Assembly: GCA_019057865.1 (NCBI GenBank)
Contig: JAHLWP010000068.1
Span: forward strand, 1-11,421
DNA length: 11,421 nt
Reading direction: 5' to 3'
DNA from: Promethearchaeota archaeon
Lineage (GTDB): Archaea > Asgardarchaeota > Lokiarchaeia > Sigyniarchaeales > SOKP01
Shown: in pieces, positions 325 to 11,061 of the stretch
How positions within the stretch are numbered: the stretch's first letter is position 1
Layout of the letters: every line of letters begins with the position of its first letter
Made by a program: the position numbers and the translations under genes
The notes under the pieces: model-generated
Database searches by the model: none
Seen by the model: the letters and a program-made list of their open reading frames with translations, nothing else
What the model was told of the DNA's origin: nothing

Positions 325-540
325 ATGAAAATGGAATTATCAAAAAAATCCGAAGAAAAGAAATTAGAATCTATTGAACATATGAGAATGAAGTTATATT
401 TTCAGGATAATCTTCCTAACGACAATAATATAACAAAAATCGAATTGGAATGTATGATTGGTAATCGCAGAGCTGACCTTTACGGAGAATTATTTGATGG
501 CAAAAAATCTTTTCTAAGACAAAAACTAGTTATTCAGTAA
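325..540 (+). pseudogene. Truncated CoiA-like / PD-(D/E)xK nuclease fragment
   Basis: ESIEHMRMKLYF ... IELECMIGNRRADLY resembles the CoiA-family 'ES.EH...K' and 'E..IG..RAD' motifs. The ORF stops after GKK without the expected (I/V)E(I/V)Q motif. Motif recognition by eye only. Confidence 0.45.
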
Positions 541-1659: not shown

Positions 1660-1833
1660 TTAAAAAAGAGTATTATTTAGGTATTGGTTCTCCACATTTC
1701 TTATTCTATCAATGGGGATATTCAATAGCAAGTATTTGCAATTGATAAATCTCTCATTATTAATATAAATTGCAGTCTTATTATATTCTAATTTCAGTGT
1801 AATATATTGGTTTATTTGAAATTTTAGTGGCAT
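1660..1833 (-). CDS. 57-aa mini-ORF or gene remnant: Lokiarchaeal N-terminal domain usually seen ahead of LRR proteins
   Basis: Hand translation MPLKFQINQYITLKLEYNKTAIYINNERFINCKYLLLNIPIDRIRNVENQYLNNTLF*. GGAGGT SD upstream. Below the ORF-track size cut-off. Family call is from memory of Loki proteins. Confidence 0.6.
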   Translation of the reverse strand: MPLKFQINQYITLKLEYNKTAIYINNERFINCKYLLLNIPIDRIRNVENQYLNNTLF

Positions 1834-1968
1834 TAATAATTTACCTCCCTTATTGTATTATTAATATAAATCGTAGTCTTATTATATTCTAATTTCAGTG
1901 TGATATATTGGTTTGCTTGAAATTCTTTATTTTTTAATAGCATTAATAATTTACCTTGCTTGTTATTG
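1756..1968. repeat. Imperfect ~100-bp tandem duplication (1756-1856 / 1857-1968)
   Basis: attattaatataaat..agtcttattatattctaatttcagtgt.atatattggttt..ttgaaatt...gcattaataatttacct..ttattg occurs twice. Confidence 0.9.
1833..1943 (-). CDS. 36-aa mini-ORF, partial duplicate of 1660-1833
   Basis: Hand translation MLLKNKEFQANQYITLKLEYNKTTIYINNTIREVNY*. Its TAA overlaps the ATG of the next ORF (TAATG). Confidence 0.45.
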   Translation of the reverse strand: MLLKNKEFQANQYITLKLEYNKTTIYINNTIREVNY

Positions 1969-2484
1969 ATAACATGCTTGTTCTTGGCAAAAAATTTTGG
2001 TTCCTTTATGGATTTTCACTACTTCAGTTTGTGGTGTATGATTTATAACTATTAAATCAACTTTCTTATTTTCACATCGAAAAGTAAAGATATCTCCTTT
2101 TGAAACTACTCGATCTTTTAAAGTTTTTACTAAACCATCTGGATTTTTTAAAATTATTCCTTTTTTATATCCCGCAAAAGAAACTTGTTGAGCAAGATGA
2201 TTTTTTGTCTTTTTAATCTTTACGATATCTTCGAGAGTTGCCTTTAGATTTCTTCTTAATAATGCATCAATCCTGATTATATTTGTACCCTCATCTCTAT
2301 GATCACTGGGAAACACTATAGCAGCCGTAAATTTTTTTTTAGATTCATTATAAATACAGATGGTATCACCAACATCGATATTACTCTCTGAAACTATTTC
2401 TGGATCAATTCGGGCAATGTTCTTACCGAAATCACCTTTAAAGGCATCCTTAATTCTTAGTTTTATATCCATTCTCATAATCAT
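1963..2484 (-). CDS. Stand-alone CDC48/p97/VAT N-terminal domain protein (double-psi beta-barrel plus CDC48_2 subdomain), no AAA module
   Basis: LRIKDAFKGDFGKNIARID ... GDTICI ... IIRIDALLRRNLKATLEDIVKI ... RVVSKGD ... TPQTEVVKI match the CDC48_N/CDC48_2 pattern. Ends at 173 aa. Confidence 0.85.
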   Translation of the reverse strand: MIMRMDIKLRIKDAFKGDFGKNIARIDPEIVSESNIDVGDTICIYNESKKKFTAAIVFPSDHRDEGTNIIRIDALLRRNLKATLEDIVKIKKTKNHLAQQVSFAGYKKGIILKNPDGLVKTLKDRVVSKGDIFTFRCENKKVDLIVINHTPQTEVVKIHKGTKIFCQEQACYQ

Positions 2485-2664
2485 AACTTTTTTATTATAG
2501 GTCTATATAAATGAAAAAATCAAATTATTATCAAAAATTATTAGTAAATATATTTAAAAGAAAAAATTCATGAAAAAATCTTAAATTACTTTATAATAAG
2601 CTTGATAATATTTTTTTATAACTTCTTTTAAAAAATAAAAAAAATAAAAAAAATTATACTTAAT

Positions 2665-3858
2665 TTATACTTTTTTTCTTAGCATATGACTTGCAATTAC
2701 CATTCTTTGAATTTCCGAGGTGCCTTCATAAATTTTAGGTTAAATAGCCGATATAGCCAAATATTCCCCCATTTTAGCATCACGGAAATATCTTTCAACC
2801 GGATATGCTTTCATTAAACCATATCCCCCGTGTATTTGTACTGCTTGGTGAGCTCCCTTCATTGCTGCCTCCGAAGCAACTAGTTTAGCCATTGAAGCTG
2901 CTAACCCATAATCCATTCCATTATCACGCATCCAAGCTGCTTTATAAGTAAGTAACCTTGCGGATTCTACTGCTGTAGTCATATCAGCAATTTTCCATTG
3001 GATACCTTGAAATCTGGCTATTTTTTGTCCAAATTGCTCCCTTTCATTAGCATATTTTATCGAGGCTTCCAGACATGCTTGAGCTAGCCCTAGACATTGA
3101 GCTGCGATTGTTATTCTTCCATAATCCAAAATTTGTAGTCCAAGTTTAAATCCAGTACCCTTTTGTCCCAGAATATTTTCCTCAGGTACTCTTACATTGT
3201 CAAACACTAGTTCGGAGGTGTTGGATGCTCGCACTCCTAATTTATCTTCTTTAACTCCAACTGAATATCCTGGAGTATTCGTATCTACAATGAATATTGT
3301 TAATTCTTTTCTACTACCTTTTTCTCCAGTCTTAGCTACAACAAGTAGAGTTTCTGCGATTCCTCCATTAGTAGCAAATATTTTACTTCCATTTAATATA
3401 TATTCATCTCCCTCTTTTTCTGCAGTAAGTTGAACTCCTCCTGCATCAGAGCCGGCATTTGCTTCTGTTAAACAAAATGCTCCTATTTTATTTCCTTTAG
3501 CAACGTCTATTAGGAATTTTTGTTTCTGATCTTCAGTTCCAAACCTATATAAAGGATATGCACAAACACCACAATGAACACTAGTAGTAATACCCCATGA
3601 GGCATCTACTCGTCCAATTTCCTCGGTGATTATTGCAAAAGAAATCGTATCATTATGTAAACCACCCCCTCCGTACTCTTCTGGGATACATGAACCAAAA
3701 TAATTCATTTCTTTCATTTTTTCAAAGACAATTGGATTTAATTCGGAGTTTTGATCAGATTCTTCGGCAACAGGTGCAATATATTCTTCCGCAAATTCAC
3801 GGGTTATCTTTCTAATCATTTTTTGCTTTTCATTTAAGGAAAAATCCATAAAAATCAT
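2665..3858 (-). CDS. Acyl-CoA dehydrogenase (short/branched-chain, butyryl-CoA DH-like), interrupted. Predicted exons 3858-2765 and 2734-2665; 387 aa if spliced
   Basis: Motifs IPEEYGG, GAFCLTEANAGSDA, NGSKIFATNG, KLGVRAS, GRITIAAQ, REQFG, QIHGGYG, VERYFRDAK. The missing C-terminus IYEGTSEIQRMVIASHMLRKKV* lies in frame at 2733-2665, beyond a 30-nt insert carrying TAA. Confidence 0.93.
2735..2764 (-). other. Candidate 30-nt BHB-type intron in mRNA
   Basis: Insert AUAUUUGGCUAUAUCGGCUAUUUAACCUAA. With its flanks it forms an exon helix AAAU/AUUU, a central helix GGGG/ACCU (3 of 4 pairs), two 3-nt bulges GA^A and AA^A, and an intron hairpin. Removal gives ATG GGG GAA ATT TAT GAA GGC. Confidence 0.65.
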
Positions 3859-4004
3859 CTATTTTTTATTTTTTCGTTATTTATTCTTACAATTTAAATT
3901 GTCTTATACAATTAAATATTTTAATAAATACTTCTAATTAAATTTGATAGATTGGTTTTTAAGACTAGATTTAAAAAATAAGAAAATTCTGTTATCTATT
4001 AATT

Positions 4005-4868: not shown

Positions 4869-5537
4869 TTAGACTTTTGTGCCACATTCTCGGCAGAAAG
4901 GACCAGTCAATTTTGCACCGCAATTTGCACAGAATTTTAGACCTTCTTGTTGAACTTGAACATCAACCTATTTATCAGGTGGTGGTTGGTACTTTTCAGT
5001 AACTTGTTCTTCCCCTTTTTTTGATTCTAGCGTAATAGCATAAATAATAAAACTAGTGGCTATAATTCCAAGAACTCCAGCTATGATTGGAAGATAAAAA
5101 CCGATACCTGGATCAAATACCGCCCAATAATTAATGATTTTTCTATCTAAATAACCATAGTATATACCTGGACCGACAAAAGCTAATATTATACCAATCA
5201 CACTTGTTACAGTAGCTGCCTTGTTATTTCTCCCATCTTTTGCATTTCTAGATGATATAAACATCAATATTGCCATAATAAATATGATTACCATTGCGAC
5301 TGTTCCAATAAGGTTATACGTATTGCCCACTTCGTCACCAAAAAGATCTCTAGCACCGCCAGAATCTGTTTGTCCATCGTCAAATGCAATCCAATTACCA
5401 GGATACCATAAGAAAACTACTCCTCCATTTGTACTATAGCATGAAGGAGTCAGTATAGCAATTATTGCTAAAATCCCACCAGCGATTAGTAATTTCCAAG
5501 TATGTCTTAAAAAGCCTTGATTTTCTATTTCTGTTAT
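4869..5537 (-). CDS. 4-TM membrane protein copy A. ATA start; in-frame TAG at 4968-4970 before an intact C-terminal zinc ribbon (189 aa, or 222 aa with readthrough)
   Basis: The frame of ORF 4968-5330 is open upstream to ATA at 5537 (ITEIENQGFLRHTWKLLIAGGILAIIAILTPSCYSTNGGVVFLWYPGNW...). After the TAG it continues VDVQVQQEGLKFCANCGAKLTGPFCRECGTKV* to TAA at 4869. Confidence 0.8.
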
Positions 5538-5611
5538 AATTAAAACCTCTTTTTTTTATTATTGGATTTTCATTAAAATTTAATTTATATTTTATATTAA
5601 TCAATAAGTTG

Positions 5612-5625
5612 TATATAAGGATTTC
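5612..5625 (-). promoter_or_regulatory. Putative BRE/TATA (GAAATCC-TTATATA) carried in each array unit
   Basis: TTATATA preceded by a purine-rich element, about 75 nt upstream of the inferred start; present in all three units. The AT-rich background limits certainty. Confidence 0.35.
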
Positions 5626-5743
5626 AATTCAACATTTATTTTACTTCATTTATGAATTTTTAAATTTAAAAACCAATTTCTCGAGAGAGATATTATACGA
5701 TGAAAGGGGTAAATTAAGATACTCCTGAAGAAACAAATAAAAG

Positions 5744-5838
5744 ATCTATGGGATACAAAGAAAGATTTCGATTTTTTTAATAGATGGCAGATTGACGATG
5801 AGAGTGGCAAATTCAGATTTTATATATCAAAAGTATAG
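5744..5838 (+). pseudogene. Duplicated 3' fragment of the MBL hydrolase gene
   Basis: Matches 4726-4820 with two substitutions (GAG>GAT, TAT>TTT). Confidence 0.9.
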
Positions 5839-5872
5839 AAAAATTAAAAAAAAGAGTTATATTGTTTAAAAT

Positions 5873-6559
5873 TTATGAAACTTTTGTGCCACATTCTTGG
5901 CAAAAAGGACCAGTCAATTTTGCACCACAATTTGGACAGAATTTTAGACCTTCCTGTTGAACTTGAACAGCAACCTGTTTATCAGGTGGTGGTTGGTATT
6001 TTTCAATTACTCGTTCTTCCCCCACTTTTGATTCTAATGTAAAAGCATAAATATTAAAACTAGTGGCTATAATTCCAAGAACTCCAGCTATGATTGGAAG
6101 ATAAAAACCGATACCTTGATCAAATGCAACCCACCAACCACTGAATTCTCTATCTAAATAACCATAGTATATACCTGGACCGAGAAAAGCTAATACTGTA
6201 CCAATCGCACTCGTTACAACAGCTACCTTGTTCTCTCTCCCCTCTGTTGCTTTTTTAGATGATATAAACATCATTATTGCAGCAATAATTAACATTATGA
6301 CAATAGCACTAGCAAGACCTATATATTTATCAGCATCAGCACTATAAATAAAAAAATCTCTAGGCCCGCCAGAATCGGTCTCCATACCATATGGTGTATC
6401 GTACCACATAACCCAAAAACCAGCAAACCACATGAAAAATCCTCCTCCATTTGTAAAATAGCATGAAGGAGTCAGTAAAGCAATTATTACTAAAATCCCA
6501 CCAACGATTAATAAAATCCTACCAGCTCTTAAAAAACCTTGACTTTTTATTTCTGTTAT
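5873..6559 (-). CDS. 4-TM membrane protein with C-terminal zinc ribbon, copy B (228 aa from ATA start)
   Basis: The frame of ORF 5873-6433 is open upstream (ITEIKSQGFLRAGRILLIVGGILVIIALLTPSCYFTNGGGFF-MWFAGFW), which supplies TM1. The ATA aligns with the ATG of copy C and follows GAGGT. C-terminal CPNC-x8-CQEC. Confidence 0.85.
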   Translation of the reverse strand: MTEIKSQGFLRAGRILLIVGGILVIIALLTPSCYFTNGGGFFMWFAGFWVMWYDTPYGMETDSGGPRDFFIYSADADKYIGLASAIVIMLIIAAIMMFISSKKATEGRENKVAVVTSAIGTVLAFLGPGIYYGYLDREFSGWWVAFDQGIGFYLPIIAGVLGIIATSFNIYAFTLESKVGEERVIEKYQPPPDKQVAVQVQQEGLKFCPNCGAKLTGPFCQECGTKVS

Positions 6560-6765
6560 AATTAAAACCTCTTTTTTTTATTATTGGATTTTCATTAAAA
6601 TTTAATTTATATTTTATATTAATCAATAAGTTGTATATAAGGATTTCAATTCAACATTTATTTTACTTCATTTATGAATTTTTAAATTTAAAAACCAATT
6701 TCTCGAGAGAGATATTATACGATGAAAGGGGTAAATTAAGATACTCCTGAAGAAACAAATAAAAG

Positions 6766-6860
6766 ATCTATGGGATACAAAGAAAGATTTCGATTTTTTT
6801 AATAGATGGCAGATTGACGATGAGAGTGGCAAATTCAGATTTTATATATCAAAAGTATAG
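6766..6860 (+). pseudogene. Second duplicated 3' fragment of the MBL hydrolase gene
   Basis: Identical to 5744-5838. Confidence 0.9.
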
Positions 6861-6912
6861 AAAAATTAAAAAAAAGAGTTATATTGTTTAAAATTTATGA
6901 AATAAATATTTA

Positions 6913-7593
6913 TTAGGCTTTTGTGCCACATTCTCGGCAGAAAGGACCAACCAATTCTGCACCACAATTTGCACAGAATCTATAGCGTTGAACATCGACT
7001 TGTGTTTTAGTTGGTGGTTGGTACTTTTCAATTACTCTTTCTGGCGTCACTTTTGATTCTAATGTAAAAGCATAGCTGGCCGCGATTCCTCCTATAATAC
7101 CCACAATACCTCCTATGATTGGCAAATAATATCCAAAACTTTGATCAAAAAACGTCCAATGAACACTGACGCCATAATACGCTATTTCCGCGTCTAAATA
7201 ATAATAATAAAAGACTGGGCCAATAATGGCCAAAATCCCCCCGAATAAACTAGTTCCTGCGGCTACTTTGTTACTTCCCCCCTGCCTTCCAGTTGTAGAG
7301 GCTGTAGCCATGAGTATCAATGCGATAAACAATAATACTGTAGCAACAGCTCCCCCAATCATTAACCTGCTATCATATGGATCAACATAAAAATCACTAG
7401 GCCAACCAGTTGACTGAGTTGCATATTCTGATGTTGTAGACCAAAAACCAAAAAACCACATGTAAGTCTCATCTAGAGGGCCGAAATCTGAATAACATGC
7501 AGGTAAAATTAAACCAAATAGTGTCAAAACTGCACCAACTACAGTTATTTTCCAAATGTGTTGTACCCAATCTGTACTTATCATTTGTGCCAT
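6913..7593 (-). CDS. 4-TM membrane protein with C-terminal zinc ribbon, copy C (226 aa)
   Basis: Four hydrophobic segments, WFFGFW in loop 1, FGYYLPIIGG at TM4, EKYQPP linker, CANC-x8-CREC. Paralogous to A and B. Confidence 0.88.
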   Translation of the reverse strand: MAQMISTDWVQHIWKITVVGAVLTLFGLILPACYSDFGPLDETYMWFFGFWSTTSEYATQSTGWPSDFYVDPYDSRLMIGGAVATVLLFIALILMATASTTGRQGGSNKVAAGTSLFGGILAIIGPVFYYYYLDAEIAYYGVSVHWTFFDQSFGYYLPIIGGIVGIIGGIAASYAFTLESKVTPERVIEKYQPPTKTQVDVQRYRFCANCGAELVGPFCRECGTKA

Positions 7594-7918: not shown

Positions 7919-9595
7919 TTGTTTGATAAAAATTATTTGGAAAAAATCAGAGAAGAAAAAGAAAAATGGGATAAGCAATATGAAGGTTTGAAAGAGCGCG
8001 ATATTAAATTTGTTACTGACTCTGAGATCCCGATTAAGAGATTATATACACCCCTAGATATAAAGGAAAAAGATTATATTGGAAATATCAATTTTCCGGG
8101 GAATCCCCCTTATACCAGAGGAGTATATCCCTCTATGTATCGAGGACGTCTGTGGACTATGCGATTATTTTCAGGTCACGGAACTCCTGAAGAAACAAAT
8201 AAACGTTGGAAATTTCTATATGAAAATGGTGAAACTGGATTTAGTGCTGCGGTTGATGCATTAACTTTTAATGGGATTGACCCGACTAATCCAGATGGTG
8301 CTCCGGAAGTCGGAACTTCGGGAGTGCCGTTATATTGCATTGATAGTCTTTTTGCCTTAACTGAAGATATTCCAATAGACAAAATTAGTGTAGCTTTAGT
8401 TGTAGAACCCTTCACATCTGCACCTGTATGTGCTATGTATTTTAACATGGCAAAAATGCGTGGTTATGATATAAGTCAATTAATTGGTACTACCCAAAAT
8501 GATATCTTGACAATGACCGTAGGATATATTCCTTATAAAAATTGTCCCCCAAATCACATTTTGCGCTTAGCATGTGATTTCATTGAATGGACTGTTCCTA
8601 TGAAAAACGTACCAAGATGGCATCCTATTAATTTCACGGGATATAATTATCGAGAAGGAGGAATTGATGCAGTTCAAGAACTTGGCTTTGTTTTCGCTAG
8701 TGCATGCTCACACATCGATAATTTAATTGAACGAGGATGGAAAGTTGATGATTTTGTAGGACGTCTTGCTTTTCACCTAGCTGCTCATAAAGATTTCTTT
8801 GAAGAAATCGCAAAATTTAGAGCAGCAAGGAGGATTTGGTATAAATTAATGAAGGATAAGTATGAAGCTAAGGATCCCAAAAATCTTGGTTTTCGATTCC
8901 ATGTGCAAACTGCTGGTTCTTCTTTAACAGCTCAATTACCTAAAGTTAATATAGTAAGAACAGCGATCCAAGCATTAGAAGCAAACTTAGGTGGTTGCCA
9001 ATCATTACACACTAATTCTTACGATGAAGCAATATGCTTACCATCTGAAGAGGCCGCTTTAGTTGCCTTAAGGACCCAACAAGTAATATCAGATGAATCT
9101 AGAATTCATAATACCATAGATCCTCTCGCAGGTTCCTATTTTATTGAATGGTTAACTGATGAAGTAGAAGAAAGAGTATGGAAATATATTGATAAAATTC
9201 AAAAAGTGGGCACAATTGATAAAGCTCTCTCATCAGGGTTCCTATATAAAGAAATGAGGGATGCATTTCATAAAAGAAGAATGCGCATCGAATCTGGTGA
9301 TGAGATCATGCTTGGTATTAATAAATTTGAGGTTCCTTACGATACAGTAACAGACGTGTTTAGAACAAATAAAGAAGCAATAAATATAGAAGTCCAACGC
9401 ATTGAAAAGCTTAAAGCGCGGAGAGATAACGTAAAATTAGAGAAAATTTTAGATAGATTACGAAATGTGTGTGAGAAAGAGGAAAATGTCATGCCTGTTG
9501 TGATGGAAGCAACCAAAGAAGGTGCAACTGTTGGCGAAATCTGTGATATTTATAGAGAAGTTTGGGGTATTTGGGAACCTCCATTAGCAATATAA
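7919..9595 (+). CDS. B12-dependent acyl-CoA mutase, large (substrate-binding) subunit, methylmalonyl-CoA mutase family with a non-canonical active site
   Basis: FPGNPPYTRGVYPSMYRGRLWTMR, GTTQNDIL, FFEEIAKFRAARRIW, HVQTAGSSLTAQ, GGCQSLHTNSYDEA, DPLAGSY, ATVGEI. TTG start. Confidence 0.95.
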   Translation: MFDKNYLEKIREEKEKWDKQYEGLKERDIKFVTDSEIPIKRLYTPLDIKEKDYIGNINFPGNPPYTRGVYPSMYRGRLWTMRLFSGHGTPEETNKRWKFLYENGETGFSAAVDALTFNGIDPTNPDGAPEVGTSGVPLYCIDSLFALTEDIPIDKISVALVVEPFTSAPVCAMYFNMAKMRGYDISQLIGTTQNDILTMTVGYIPYKNCPPNHILRLACDFIEWTVPMKNVPRWHPINFTGYNYREGGIDAVQELGFVFASACSHIDNLIERGWKVDDFVGRLAFHLAAHKDFFEEIAKFRAARRIWYKLMKDKYEAKDPKNLGFRFHVQTAGSSLTAQLPKVNIVRTAIQALEANLGGCQSLHTNSYDEAICLPSEEAALVALRTQQVISDESRIHNTIDPLAGSYFIEWLTDEVEERVWKYIDKIQKVGTIDKALSSGFLYKEMRDAFHKRRMRIESGDEIMLGINKFEVPYDTVTDVFRTNKEAINIEVQRIEKLKARRDNVKLEKILDRLRNVCEKEENVMPVVMEATKEGATVGEICDIYREVWGIWEPPLAI

Positions 9596-9600
9596 ACTTT

Positions 9601-9607
9601 GAGGTGA
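9601..9607 (+). promoter_or_regulatory. Shine-Dalgarno GAGGTGA
   Basis: Strong anti-16S match 7 nt before the ATG at 9615. Confidence 0.8.
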
Positions 9608-9614
9608 AAAGAGC

Positions 9615-10013
9615 ATGAGCGATAAGAAAATTAGGGTGTTAATGTCAAAACCAGGTATTGATGGACATTGGCGTGGTGGGATAGTTGTATCAAGAGCTAT
9701 AAGAGACGCTGGTATGGAACTTGTTTTTGGAGGTTTTCAAAATGTTCAACAAATTGTTGAGGCAGCAATTCAAGAAGATGTAGACGTTATCGGCTTAAGT
9801 ATACATTCCGGAGCTCACTTTACATATACGCAACAAGTTATTGATTTATTAAAAGAACGAGGCGTATTAGATAATATCATGATCCTTTTAGGAGGAGTAA
9901 TTCCTGCAAAGGATTTTACCAAATTAAAAGAGATGGGTGTAGCGAATGTTTATGGACCTGGAACTCTTACGAAAGATATTGTCGAATTTATTAGAACTAA
10001 TGTAAAAAAATAA
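9615..10013 (+). CDS. Acyl-CoA mutase small, cobalamin-binding subunit
   Basis: KPGIDGHWRGG (DxHxxG), AAIQEDVDVIGLSIHSGAH, GGVIP, YGPGT. Confidence 0.95.
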   Translation: MSDKKIRVLMSKPGIDGHWRGGIVVSRAIRDAGMELVFGGFQNVQQIVEAAIQEDVDVIGLSIHSGAHFTYTQQVIDLLKERGVLDNIMILLGGVIPAKDFTKLKEMGVANVYGPGTLTKDIVEFIRTNVKK

Positions 10014-10083
10014 AAAAGTCATGTAATATTTTCTTTAACAAATTATAATTTAATAGCTATTCCTTAATGGGGAATGTGTTTCA

Positions 10084-11061
10084 TTGAAGTTTGAAAACGA
10101 TATTGATACTTTAATTAGTAGGTTTAAGAAGAAAGACAAAATAGCTTTAGCAAAATTGATAACCATAATTGAAAATGAGCCTGAAAGAGCTCATGAAATT
10201 TTTAAACAGTTTGAAGATATAAAACAAGATTCATACATTATTGGAATTACGGGATCGCCTGGTGTTGGGAAAAGCACATTAACGAGTGAAATTACTAAAA
10301 GACTTTTAGAAGATGCAAAGTCTGTTGGTATTATTTGTGTTGATCCAAGCTCTCCTTTTAGCGGAGGTGCTTTTTTAGGAGATAGAGTACGCATGACAAA
10401 TATATCATTACATCAGAGCGTATTTTTACGTAGTCTCGCTTCAAGAGGGTATAAAGGGGGTATTTCAAGAGCAGTTTTTGACATTAGTCTACTATACGAA
10501 GCTTTTGGTATGGATATAATCATTATTGAAACTGTAGGTGTTGGACAAGCTGAATTTGACGTTTTTAATTTAGCCTATACCATTGTTGTTGTCCTTGTAC
10601 CGGGATATGGGGATGCAATCCAAATGCAGAAAGCAGGGATTATTGAGATAGGTGATATTTACGATATTAACAAAAAAGATTTAGGTGGAGAAGGTATCGC
10701 TGTTCAAATTGAAATGATGCTTGATGATACAGTTTTTCAATCTGGGTGGAGGCCTCCTGTATCAATGACAAATGCGATTAATGGAGAAGGTATTGATGAT
10801 CTCATTCAAAATATATGGGATCATAAAGAACATGTGGAACTTTCAGGACTTATAAATGAAAAGAAAAAAAATCGATTTAAATACAAAATAAAAGAATTAA
10901 TCTATTCTAAAATTGAAAATTTAATCTCCAAGAGTCTAATTAACGAAGATGAGATAAATAACATAATAGAACACGCTATAGATGATGGAAAATTCAAAAT
11001 TTACCGTACAATCCATAATAAATTCGAAGATGTGAATTTTGAGATAAAGAAGAAGAATTAA
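10084..11061 (+). CDS. meaB: MeaB/ArgK G-protein chaperone of acyl-CoA mutase
   Basis: GITGSPGVGKST, VDPSSPFSGGAFLGDRVRM, FLRSLASRG, ETVGVGQAE, GDAIQMQKAGIIE, NKKD. Adjacent to the mutase genes. Confidence 0.95.
   Translation: MKFENDIDTLISRFKKKDKIALAKLITIIENEPERAHEIFKQFEDIKQDSYIIGITGSPGVGKSTLTSEITKRLLEDAKSVGIICVDPSSPFSGGAFLGDRVRMTNISLHQSVFLRSLASRGYKGGISRAVFDISLLYEAFGMDIIIIETVGVGQAEFDVFNLAYTIVVVLVPGYGDAIQMQKAGIIEIGDIYDINKKDLGGEGIAVQIEMMLDDTVFQSGWRPPVSMTNAINGEGIDDLIQNIWDHKEHVELSGLINEKKKNRFKYKIKELIYSKIENLISKSLINEDEINNIIEHAIDDGKFKIYRTIHNKFEDVNFEIKKKN

What the first reader, a model, noticed from the sequence alone, without database searches (positions are those of the whole stretch)
2727..2777. 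Candidate bulge-helix-bulge (tRNA-type) intron inside an acyl-CoA dehydrogenase mRNA
Seen: the ORF appears to end ...RDAKMGE-YLAISAI*, but the conserved tail IYEGTSEIQRMVIASHMLRKKV* follows in the same frame after exactly 30 extra nt that contain a UAA. The mRNA parses as AAAU | GGGG | GA^A | UAUUUGGCU | AUAUC | GGCUAUUUA | ACCU | AA^A | AUUU. That gives a 4-bp exon helix (AAAU/AUUU), a 4-nt central helix (G.U, G-C, G-C, one G/A mismatch), two 3-nt bulges on opposite strands, and an intron hairpin (7 of 9 pairs, 5-nt loop). Established: archaeal splicing endonuclease EndA cuts after the 2nd nt of each BHB bulge and RtcB ligates. Applying that rule excises 2764-2735 and yields AUG GGG GA|A AUU UAU GAA GGC = MGEIYEG with no scar. 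The Glu of YEGT is the catalytic base of SCAD/MCAD-type enzymes, so the unspliced product should be inactive, yet both exons look intact. The well-known archaeal mRNA intron case is crenarchaeal cbf5. Inference: an EndA-spliced intron in a metabolic gene of a probable Asgard archaeon, possibly a splicing-dependent expression switch and one of a wider overlooked class annotated as pseudogenes.
Basis: partly seen in the sequence, partly recalled or inferred. Interest (0 to 1): 0.95.

Follow-up and report, generated by a model that had tools for sequence, protein, structure and literature searches.

The report
tRNA-type mini-intron in Asgard dehydrogenase gene
A 30-base insert with a stop codon splits an acyl-CoA dehydrogenase gene of a Loki-type Asgard archaeon; it has the shape the tRNA-splicing enzymes cut and is kept in diverged relatives, so the mRNA is very probably spliced, as it appears to be in several other genes of this genome, something the papers I could search confirm inside a coding sequence for one archaeal gene only (cbf5).

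Summary
Confirmed. A 30-nt insert (window 2764-2735, minus strand) with an in-frame TAA interrupts the acyl-CoA dehydrogenase gene three codons before the catalytic Glu. Twelve further distinct alleles in related Promethearchaeota carry a 30-nt insert at the same site. The bulge-helix-bulge fold is kept by compensatory changes (94.6% of cells paired). Only the BHB-predicted cut (GA|A) restores the conserved Glu in every allele, and the exons are under purifying selection (dN/dS 0.04-0.10). Three independent metagenome studies show the insert in DNA. The genome encodes a two-subunit EndA and RtcB. Homology screening found 17 such 28-34-nt inserts in 9 genes of this genome, including the only uS12 gene, LeuRS (4), EF-2 and acetyl-CoA synthetase (5); 8 shift the frame. 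In relatives, a free-standing LAGLIDADG endonuclease sits right behind the intron-bearing allele (6 of 12 lineages, 0 of 36 intron-less alleles), and one allele shows a co-conversion tract, which points to spread by collaborative homing. A regulatory switch is unsupported. No RNA was available, so splicing is inferred. The scan noted this class earlier on other DNA, including this site in another genome.

The parts
2765..3858 (-). Exon 1 of the acyl-CoA dehydrogenase (SCAD/butyryl-CoA dehydrogenase type); ends inside the Glu365 codon (GA)
   Evidence: Pfam Acyl-CoA_dh N, M, 1; orthologue L002: 1e-113 to 5ol2 and 4l1f
2735..2764 (-). 30-nt BHB intron; contains the in-frame TAA at 2742-2740
   Evidence: same length and site in 12 other distinct alleles
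2665..2734 (-). Exon 2: last base of Glu365, then Ile-Tyr-Glu368 (catalytic base, codon 2727-2725), the C-terminal helix and the stop codon
   Evidence: catalytic role from established knowledge of SCAD/MCAD
2767..2770 (-). 5' (exonic) strand of the 4-bp central helix
   Evidence: pairs 16-19
2737..2740 (-). 3' (intronic) strand of the central helix
2764..2766 (-). 5' 3-nt bulge; predicted cut between 2765 and 2764
   Evidence: BHB rule; the only register that restores Glu in all alleles
2734..2736 (-). 3' 3-nt bulge; predicted cut between 2735 and 2734
   Evidence: as above
2741..2763 (-). Intron hairpin (h'): 9-bp stem with a 5-nt loop; 7/9 paired here, 96.6% of cells across alleles
2730..2774 (-). 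Inner exon-exon helix (h): 2774-2771 with 2733-2730; the Lys and Ile wobble bases covary (A-U, G-C, G.U)
2712..2788 (-).
   Evidence: mean 10.7/12 in intron-bearing alleles against 7.4/12 in intron-less alleles; fold

Best explanation
The insert is a tRNA-type (BHB) intron in a protein-coding mRNA. The pre-mRNA folds into an outer exon stem, the exon helix, a 3-nt bulge, the 4-bp central helix, a second 3-nt bulge and the intron hairpin. The two-subunit EndA with the L1/CSL loop cuts after the second base of each bulge, RtcB joins the exons, the split codon GA|A gives Glu365, and the full 387-aa enzyme with Glu368 is made. Unspliced RNA gives a 372-aa protein without the catalytic base. Shown: sequence, covariation, register, purifying selection and presence of the enzymes. 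Inferred: the cleavage and ligation themselves. The intron most likely spreads as a passenger of a free-standing LAGLIDADG endonuclease inserted between acd and etfB (collaborative homing, about 0.7): the enzyme would cut the intron-less allele at or near this conserved site, the intron would protect its carrier, and repair would copy the end of exon 1, the intron, exon 2 and the endonuclease gene. In this genome the endonuclease is gone and the intron remains. Target cleavage is inferred, not shown.
For: (1) Same site and length in 13 distinct alleles whose genes are only about 70-99% identical; structure kept by compensatory changes. (2) Register: L034, L037 and L088 read GAT (Asp) into the insert, which excludes a cut after the third base; L036, L078 and L090 end the insert in AG, which would give Gly for a cut after the first base. 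Only GA|A, the BHB position, gives Glu in all alleles. (3) dN/dS is 0.04-0.10 between intron-bearing alleles and 0.04-0.07 between intron-less ones; no exon lesions. (4) EndA alpha subunit (C71) aligns with crenarchaeal EndA (3p1z, 3e-35) and has the Tyr/His/Lys triad and the L1 loop; a second subunit is on C69 and RtcB on C75 (PMC5829648). (5) Class: 17 homology-defined inserts of 28-34 nt in 9 genes of this genome; in all 17 the best BHB register among 31 restores the orthologue peptide; 8 shift the frame. uS12 is single-copy here and has a stop in its insert. (6) The ACS, LeuRS and uS12 introns recur in other genera, and in another Asgard family for uS12, with different sequences and the same fold. 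(7) Homing: LAGLIDADG gene adjacent in 6 of 12 intron-bearing lineages and 0 of 36 intron-less alleles. Its close form occurs in exactly the three other intron-bearing genomes of the genus and none of the other 50. L037 follows its intron-less sister upstream and switches to the L034 type from about -170 nt through exon 2 (14/14 informative sites).
Against: No spliced transcript, circular intron or peptide was seen. This allele has the weakest fold of the set: a G/A mismatch next to the 5' bulge and two U.U pairs, and the BHB is 3.3 kcal/mol above the MFE, so its splicing may be inefficient. Seven of 13 alleles have a mismatch at the other end of the central helix. Related alleles are not independent, so the shuffle counts and p-values overstate. 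Any hairpin insert would centre the BHB score near its ends, which inflates the register statistic. No endonuclease or remnant lies in this window, and half of the intron-bearing lineages lack it.
Confidence: 0.88

Rival explanations
1. Ribosomal bypassing (byp or T4 gene 60 type): the ribosome hops over the hairpin on an unspliced mRNA.
For: Short hairpin inserts with a stop resemble byps (own knowledge). Two of the 17 inserts have matching take-off and landing codons.
Against: Here take-off GAA would land on AAA, and in L034 GAT on AAA, giving Asp. 15 of 17 inserts lack matched codons and 4 have no codon-boundary hop that restores the protein. Bypassing does not explain conserved exon-intron and exon-exon pairing or the fixed 3-4-3 geometry.
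Confidence: 0.04
2. An inactivating DNA insertion (palindromic mini-element); the gene is a pseudogene or is tolerated as truncated.
For: Most orthologues lack the insert (5 of 85 genomes with a match carry it). The genome has many paralogous acyl-CoA dehydrogenases, at most 43% identical.
Against: Purifying selection in intron-bearing alleles over dS up to 1.8; covarying structure; the same kind of insert with a stop in the only uS12 gene and in LeuRS and EF-2; no second copy of the insert in the genome.
Confidence: 0.03
3. It is spliced and also serves as a regulatory switch (splicing-dependent control of acyl-CoA oxidation), as was proposed for cbf5.
For: It splits off the catalytic Glu, like the cbf5 intron (PMC2738675). 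Removal of the HVO_1309 5' UTR intron matters for expression (PMC7714728).
Against: Patchy and horizontally moved; insertion in the most conserved motif is what homing predicts; the same kind of insert occurs in unrelated housekeeping genes. Nothing in the intron sequence is conserved beyond pairing.
Confidence: 0.1
4. Stop-codon read-through that yields a protein with a 10-residue insert.
For: The insert is in frame and the stop sits at the same codon in all alleles.
Against: The stop is TAA in some alleles and TAG in others; the encoded residues vary; the insert would sit next to the catalytic loop; 8 of 17 sister inserts shift the frame.
Confidence: 0.01

Closest known systems
BHB intron of the cbf5 (pseudouridine synthase) pre-mRNA in Desulfurococcales and Sulfolobales (Watanabe 2002; Yokobori 2009, PMC2738675)
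   Same: Short BHB intron inside a coding sequence, splitting a codon at or next to a catalytic residue; cut after the second base of each bulge; host has hetero-oligomeric EndA; lineage-specific absence.
   Different: cbf5 is one gene, inherited from a common ancestor with losses, and confirmed by cDNA.
BHB intron in the 5' UTR of Haloferax volcanii HVO_1309 (Schwarz 2020, PMC7714728)
   Same: EndA substrate in an mRNA.
   Different: Outside the coding sequence; single case.
Asgard tRNA introns (bioRxiv 10.64898/2026.10.13.758758; PMC11291895)
   Same: Same motif, size range and two-subunit EndA; repeated gains.
   Different: That census covers tRNA genes only ('mRNA' and 'cbf5' do not occur in its text) and leaves the arrival route open.
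Collaborative homing by free-standing endonucleases (F-CphI of cyanophage S-PM2, PMC6083498; T4 mobE, PMC2790892)
   Same: An ORF-less intron in a conserved gene beside a separate endonuclease gene, moving together by co-conversion.
   Different: Those are group I introns in phages with HNH or EndoVII-type nucleases. Here it is an enzyme-spliced 30-nt BHB intron in a cellular chromosome with a two-motif LAGLIDADG protein; cleavage is untested.
HAC1/XBP1 intron (IRE1 cleavage, tRNA ligase/RtcB joining; PMC13149111)
   Same: Short mRNA intron removed by protein enzymes of the tRNA-splicing type.
   Different: Different nuclease and recognition motif; regulated. No homology is implied.

Membership tests
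Archaeal BHB (EndA/RtcB) intron | 4-bp central helix between exon and intron | tested here: met
   3 of 4 pairs in the window; 84.6% of cells over 13 alleles; 4/4 in L089, L036, L078, L090 and L070. Relaxed rather than strict in this allele.
Archaeal BHB (EndA/RtcB) intron | Two 3-nt bulges on opposite strands | tested here: met
   Same spacing in all alleles; sliding the partners by 1-3 columns drops pairing from 94.6% to 29-38%.
Archaeal BHB (EndA/RtcB) intron | Flanking exon (h) and intron (h') helices | tested here: met
   100% and 96.6% of cells paired, with double-sided changes; extra outer stem.
Archaeal BHB (EndA/RtcB) intron | Cuts after the second bulge base restore the functional RNA | tested here: met
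   Only GA|A gives Glu in all alleles; 17/17 inserts in this genome.
Archaeal BHB (EndA/RtcB) intron | Host encodes a catalytic EndA able to take relaxed motifs, and a ligase | tested here: met
   Alpha subunit with triad and L1 loop, a second subunit, and RtcB.
Archaeal BHB (EndA/RtcB) intron | Spliced RNA or excised intron observed; cleavage by EndA | not testable with these tools
Collaborative homing pair | Free-standing endonuclease gene linked to the intron-bearing allele only | tested here: met
   6/12 against 0/36 in relatives. Not present in this window.
Collaborative homing pair | Co-conversion of flanking sequence | tested here: met
   Breakpoint in L037; exon 2 of L088 matches L034 at 16/16 informative sites.
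Collaborative homing pair | Endonuclease cuts the intron-less allele and not the intron-bearing one | not testable with these tools
   Needs a cleavage assay.
Programmed translational bypass element (byp, gene 60) | Matching take-off and landing codons | tested here: not met
   GAA against AAA here; 2 of 17 in the genome.
Group I or II self-splicing intron | Catalytic RNA core of hundreds of bases | tested here: not met
   30 nt; no Rfam match at E up to 1.

The most novel reading that the evidence does not exclude
Loki-type Asgard archaea routinely splice mRNAs with the tRNA-splicing machinery. Roughly 1% of genes in intron-rich genomes, essential ones included, carry one to six introns of about 30 nt. 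These introns are seeded and spread by neighbouring free-standing homing endonucleases. That would be genome-wide, multi-intron mRNA splicing without a spliceosome in the archaeal group closest to eukaryotes, with a concrete route for intron gain.
Probability: 0.7. Interest if true: 0.92.

Novelty: new variant of a known kind. Interest (0 to 1): 0.82.

Why it matters
In the papers I could search, splicing inside an archaeal coding sequence is confirmed only for cbf5; others were merely predicted (PMC2738675, PMC7714728). If these inserts are spliced, Asgard archaea have multi-intron protein genes, including ribosomal protein S12, EF-2 and a tRNA synthetase, and EndA/RtcB are essential for mRNA maturation. 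This bears on how intron-tolerant gene expression and RtcB-dependent mRNA splicing (XBP1/HAC1) arose near the origin of eukaryotes. The linked LAGLIDADG gene gives a testable answer to how BHB introns arrive and spread, which a 2026 preprint on Asgard tRNA introns calls the central open problem. In practice, such genes are annotated as truncated or pseudogenes, and the in-frame ones as proteins with false insertions, which distorts metabolic reconstructions and phylogenies.

Tried and rejected
RNA evidence: no RNA holder was listed for window 2600-3900; this is no evidence either way, and only DNA contigs could be laid. De novo BHB scans without homology were too noisy (61,308 and 65,084 raw motifs); only homology-confirmed inserts were counted. 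No second copy of the intron in the genome and no evident match among the ARAGORN tRNA introns, so a tRNA-intron donor is not shown. No Rfam match. No endonuclease gene or remnant in the window. The promoter and terminator scan was uninformative (bacterial consensus). Two homology hits were rejected: C41 minus 25136 (antisense view of a counted insert) and C41 plus 91818 (poor alignment). The 65-nt insert in RNA polymerase subunit A' and the 33-nt insert in a small GTPase were left out of the count of 17 (ambiguous register; paralogue support only). Most of the pattern hits were unrelated uninterrupted dehydrogenases. Literature searches for mRNA introns in Asgard or Lokiarchaeia found none; subscription papers are largely outside the library. 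Only about 1.2 Mb of one relative (G002) was sampled, so the genome-wide count is a lower bound. Searches were input slips.

Full report
Observation. The feature lies on the minus strand. The ORF 3858..2740 encodes an acyl-CoA dehydrogenase that stops at a TAA (2742-2740) eight codons after Met-Gly. The conserved tail continues in the same frame after 30 extra bases. Removing 2764-2735 gives a 387-aa protein. All 21 closest orthologues from the same genus are uninterrupted and read Met-Gly(Thr)-Glu-Ile(Val)-Tyr-Glu-Gly across the site. An intact orthologue matches solved butyryl-CoA/short-chain acyl-CoA dehydrogenases over the full length; by established knowledge the Glu of Tyr-Glu-Gly is their catalytic base, and it lies in exon 2. 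On its own this allele is a modest BHB: 3.3 kcal/mol above the MFE, with a score reached at about 1.3% of random coding sites. Contigs of three independent studies bridge the insert with no gap, so it is real DNA.

Host. Four GTDB genomes with an insert at this site are Promethearchaeota (Lokiarchaeia) MAGs, and the one titled Loki_b32 is in the same genus as this genome. The genome encodes two EndA subunits and RtcB. The C71 subunit aligns best with crenarchaeal EndA (3e-35), with the Tyr/His/Lys triad and the L1 loop that confers relaxed-motif cleavage and is reported for Asgard archaea (PMC5829648).

Comparative evidence at this site. Pattern searches gave 13 distinct alleles with a 30-nt insert at exactly this codon; 5 of 85 genomes of the family with a match carry it. 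Over the 17 BHB pairs, 94.6% of cells pair and 4 pairs change on both sides; no shuffle of 500 reaches that fraction, and sliding the partners gives 29-38% (kin are not independent). The register is pinned by the alleles themselves. L034, L037 and L088 continue GA-T into the insert, so a cut after the third base gives Asp. L036, L078 and L090 end the insert in AG, so a cut after the first base gives Gly. Only GA|A, the cut after the second base of each bulge, restores Glu in all. The exons cooperate: 12 of 13 intron-bearing alleles use GGT for the Gly (18 of 38 intron-less do), the Lys and Ile wobble bases always pair, and an outer exon stem of 10-11 of 12 pairs is built from synonymous codons, against a mean of 7.4 in intron-less alleles (selection and co-conversion can both contribute). 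Intron-bearing genes are under purifying selection like intron-less ones (dN/dS 0.04-0.10 against 0.04-0.07) and have no exon lesions.

A class, not a single case. A BHB scan with a reading-frame filter found a 32-nt insert in acetyl-CoA synthetase, which has five inserts of 30-33 nt relative to six orthologues; the same sites are occupied by different hairpins in three genomes of two other genera. Alignment of about 800 genes of this genome with a 1.2-Mb sample of an intron-poor relative and the fetched loci gave 17 genuine inserts of 28-34 nt in 9 genes: this one, ACS (5), LeuRS (4), a thiolase-like gene (2), uS12, EF-2, a vWA-type protein, a ferredoxin-like protein and a small protein. The relative had no hairpin insert of that size. 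In all 17 the best-scoring BHB register among 31 restores the orthologue's residues (the hairpin itself partly centres the score). Eight shift the reading frame, which excludes read-through, and only two have matched take-off and landing codons, which argues against bypassing. uS12 is single-copy in this genome and its insert holds a stop, so these genes cannot all be dead. Another LeuRS site carries a 29-31-nt BHB insert in 11 other genomes of four genera, and four genomes of a distant Asgard family have a 33-34-nt perfect BHB in uS12. Extrapolated roughly, about 1% of the genes of this genome are interrupted (inference).

How it spreads. On the gene tree the intron needs 9 changes, at least 6 forced by strong branches. 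A two-motif LAGLIDADG gene (Pfam LAGLIDADG_3) is the first gene behind the dehydrogenase in 6 of 12 intron-bearing lineages and in none of 36 intron-less alleles, most of which run straight into etfB. In the genus its close form occurs in just the three other intron-bearing genomes; in one of these it has stayed beside etfB after a rearrangement. L037 is 96% identical to an intron-less sister upstream, switches to the type of the more distant L034 about 170 nt before the intron, and matches L034 at 14 of 14 informative sites in and just after exon 2, with an identical intron. This is the signature of homing with co-conversion, as described for phage free-standing endonucleases. The window has no such gene or remnant; its downstream neighbour is a CDC48-N-domain gene, so here the intron outlived its carrier (inference).

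Mechanism. Shown: the insert, its fold and covariation, the register, selection on the exons, the enzymes, and the linkage to an endonuclease in relatives. Inferred: EndA cuts at 2765/2764 and 2735/2734 and RtcB ligates (0.88); spread by collaborative homing (about 0.7). A regulatory role is possible but nothing points to it. No RNA run holds the stretch, so splicing was not observed.

Comparison and novelty. It works like, and by every sequence-testable feature belongs to, the archaeal BHB introns. In print I found splicing inside a coding sequence only for cbf5, with other cases merely predicted, and one 5' UTR case in Haloferax. A 2026 census of Asgard introns deals with tRNAs only. What differs is scale, multi-intron genes, essential targets and the homing partner, hence a new variant of a known kind. 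The scan's own notes report this class on other DNA and in other pieces of this genome, and this same site beside a LAGLIDADG gene in another genome. I had reached the splicing reading and found ACS, LeuRS, uS12, EF-2 and thiolase before reading them; one note prompted the test for a neighbouring endonuclease. They are leads, not support.

Noticed in passing
G000 C82 minus strand, intron starts at 579, 445, 370, 231, 124 (L098, L106): Acetyl-CoA synthetase with five BHB inserts (32, 33, 30, 30, 30 nt); the contig ends inside the gene. Shared sites in G069, G140 and G146, which add two further sites (L105, L107, L108).
   Followed up: yes
G000 C49 plus strand 5260, 5689, 6048, 6129 (L109): Leucyl-tRNA synthetase with four BHB inserts (28, 34, 30, 28 nt). 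A different site (residue 83) is interrupted in 11 other genomes (L181-L191).
   Followed up: yes
G000 C27 minus strand 25059; L221, L223, L227-L230: The only uS12 gene has a 30-nt BHB insert with a stop; same site in G090, another site in G102, and a third in four genomes of distant Asgard family f24.
   Followed up: yes
G000 C82 minus 40903; C7 minus 63890 and about 63477; C37 plus 37968; C41 plus 25103; C65 minus 42385: BHB inserts of 29-31 nt in EF-2, a thiolase-like gene (2), a vWA-type protein, a ferredoxin-like protein and a small protein.
   Followed up: partly
G000 C27 minus strand near 30473: 65-nt frameshifting, strongly paired insert in RNA polymerase subunit A' at Gly-His|Ile; one BHB register (score 14) restores the protein, but it is not the top-scoring one.
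   Followed up: partly
G000 C48 plus strand 46556 (L110): 33-nt BHB insert with a stop in a small GTPase gene; supported by a paralogue only.
   Followed up: partly
L037:1119-2564 (+), L078:305-1720 (-), L070:4910-6424 (+), L088, L096, L034, L240, L241: Family of about 480-aa two-motif LAGLIDADG proteins inserted between acd and etfB in either orientation; fused to other domains in L034 and L240.
   Followed up: yes
window 7919-11061 (+): B12 acyl-CoA mutase large and small subunits plus MeaB; the large subunit has an atypical substrate motif (Phe where methylmalonyl-CoA mutase has Tyr89, by eye), which suggests another substrate.
   Followed up: no
window 4968-7593 (-): Three tandem paralogous membrane proteins, two with a C-terminal zinc ribbon; the first looks truncated.
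   Followed up: no
window 1963-2484 (-) and about 1700-2000 (-): Stand-alone CDC48 N-domain gene right behind acd, followed by a decayed fragment similar to the N-terminus of the L034 fusion protein; etfB/etfA are not adjacent, unlike in most relatives.
   Followed up: partly
window 325-540 (+): 71-aa ORF that resembles a PD-(D/E)xK nuclease fragment by eye; no Pfam match.
   Followed up: partly
L017 and L059: Two intron-less alleles keep the strong outer exon stem (11/12) typical of intron-bearing alleles; candidates for precise intron loss.
   Followed up: no
G120 (C73 and C145): One genome has both an intron-bearing and an intron-less copy of this site.
   Followed up: no
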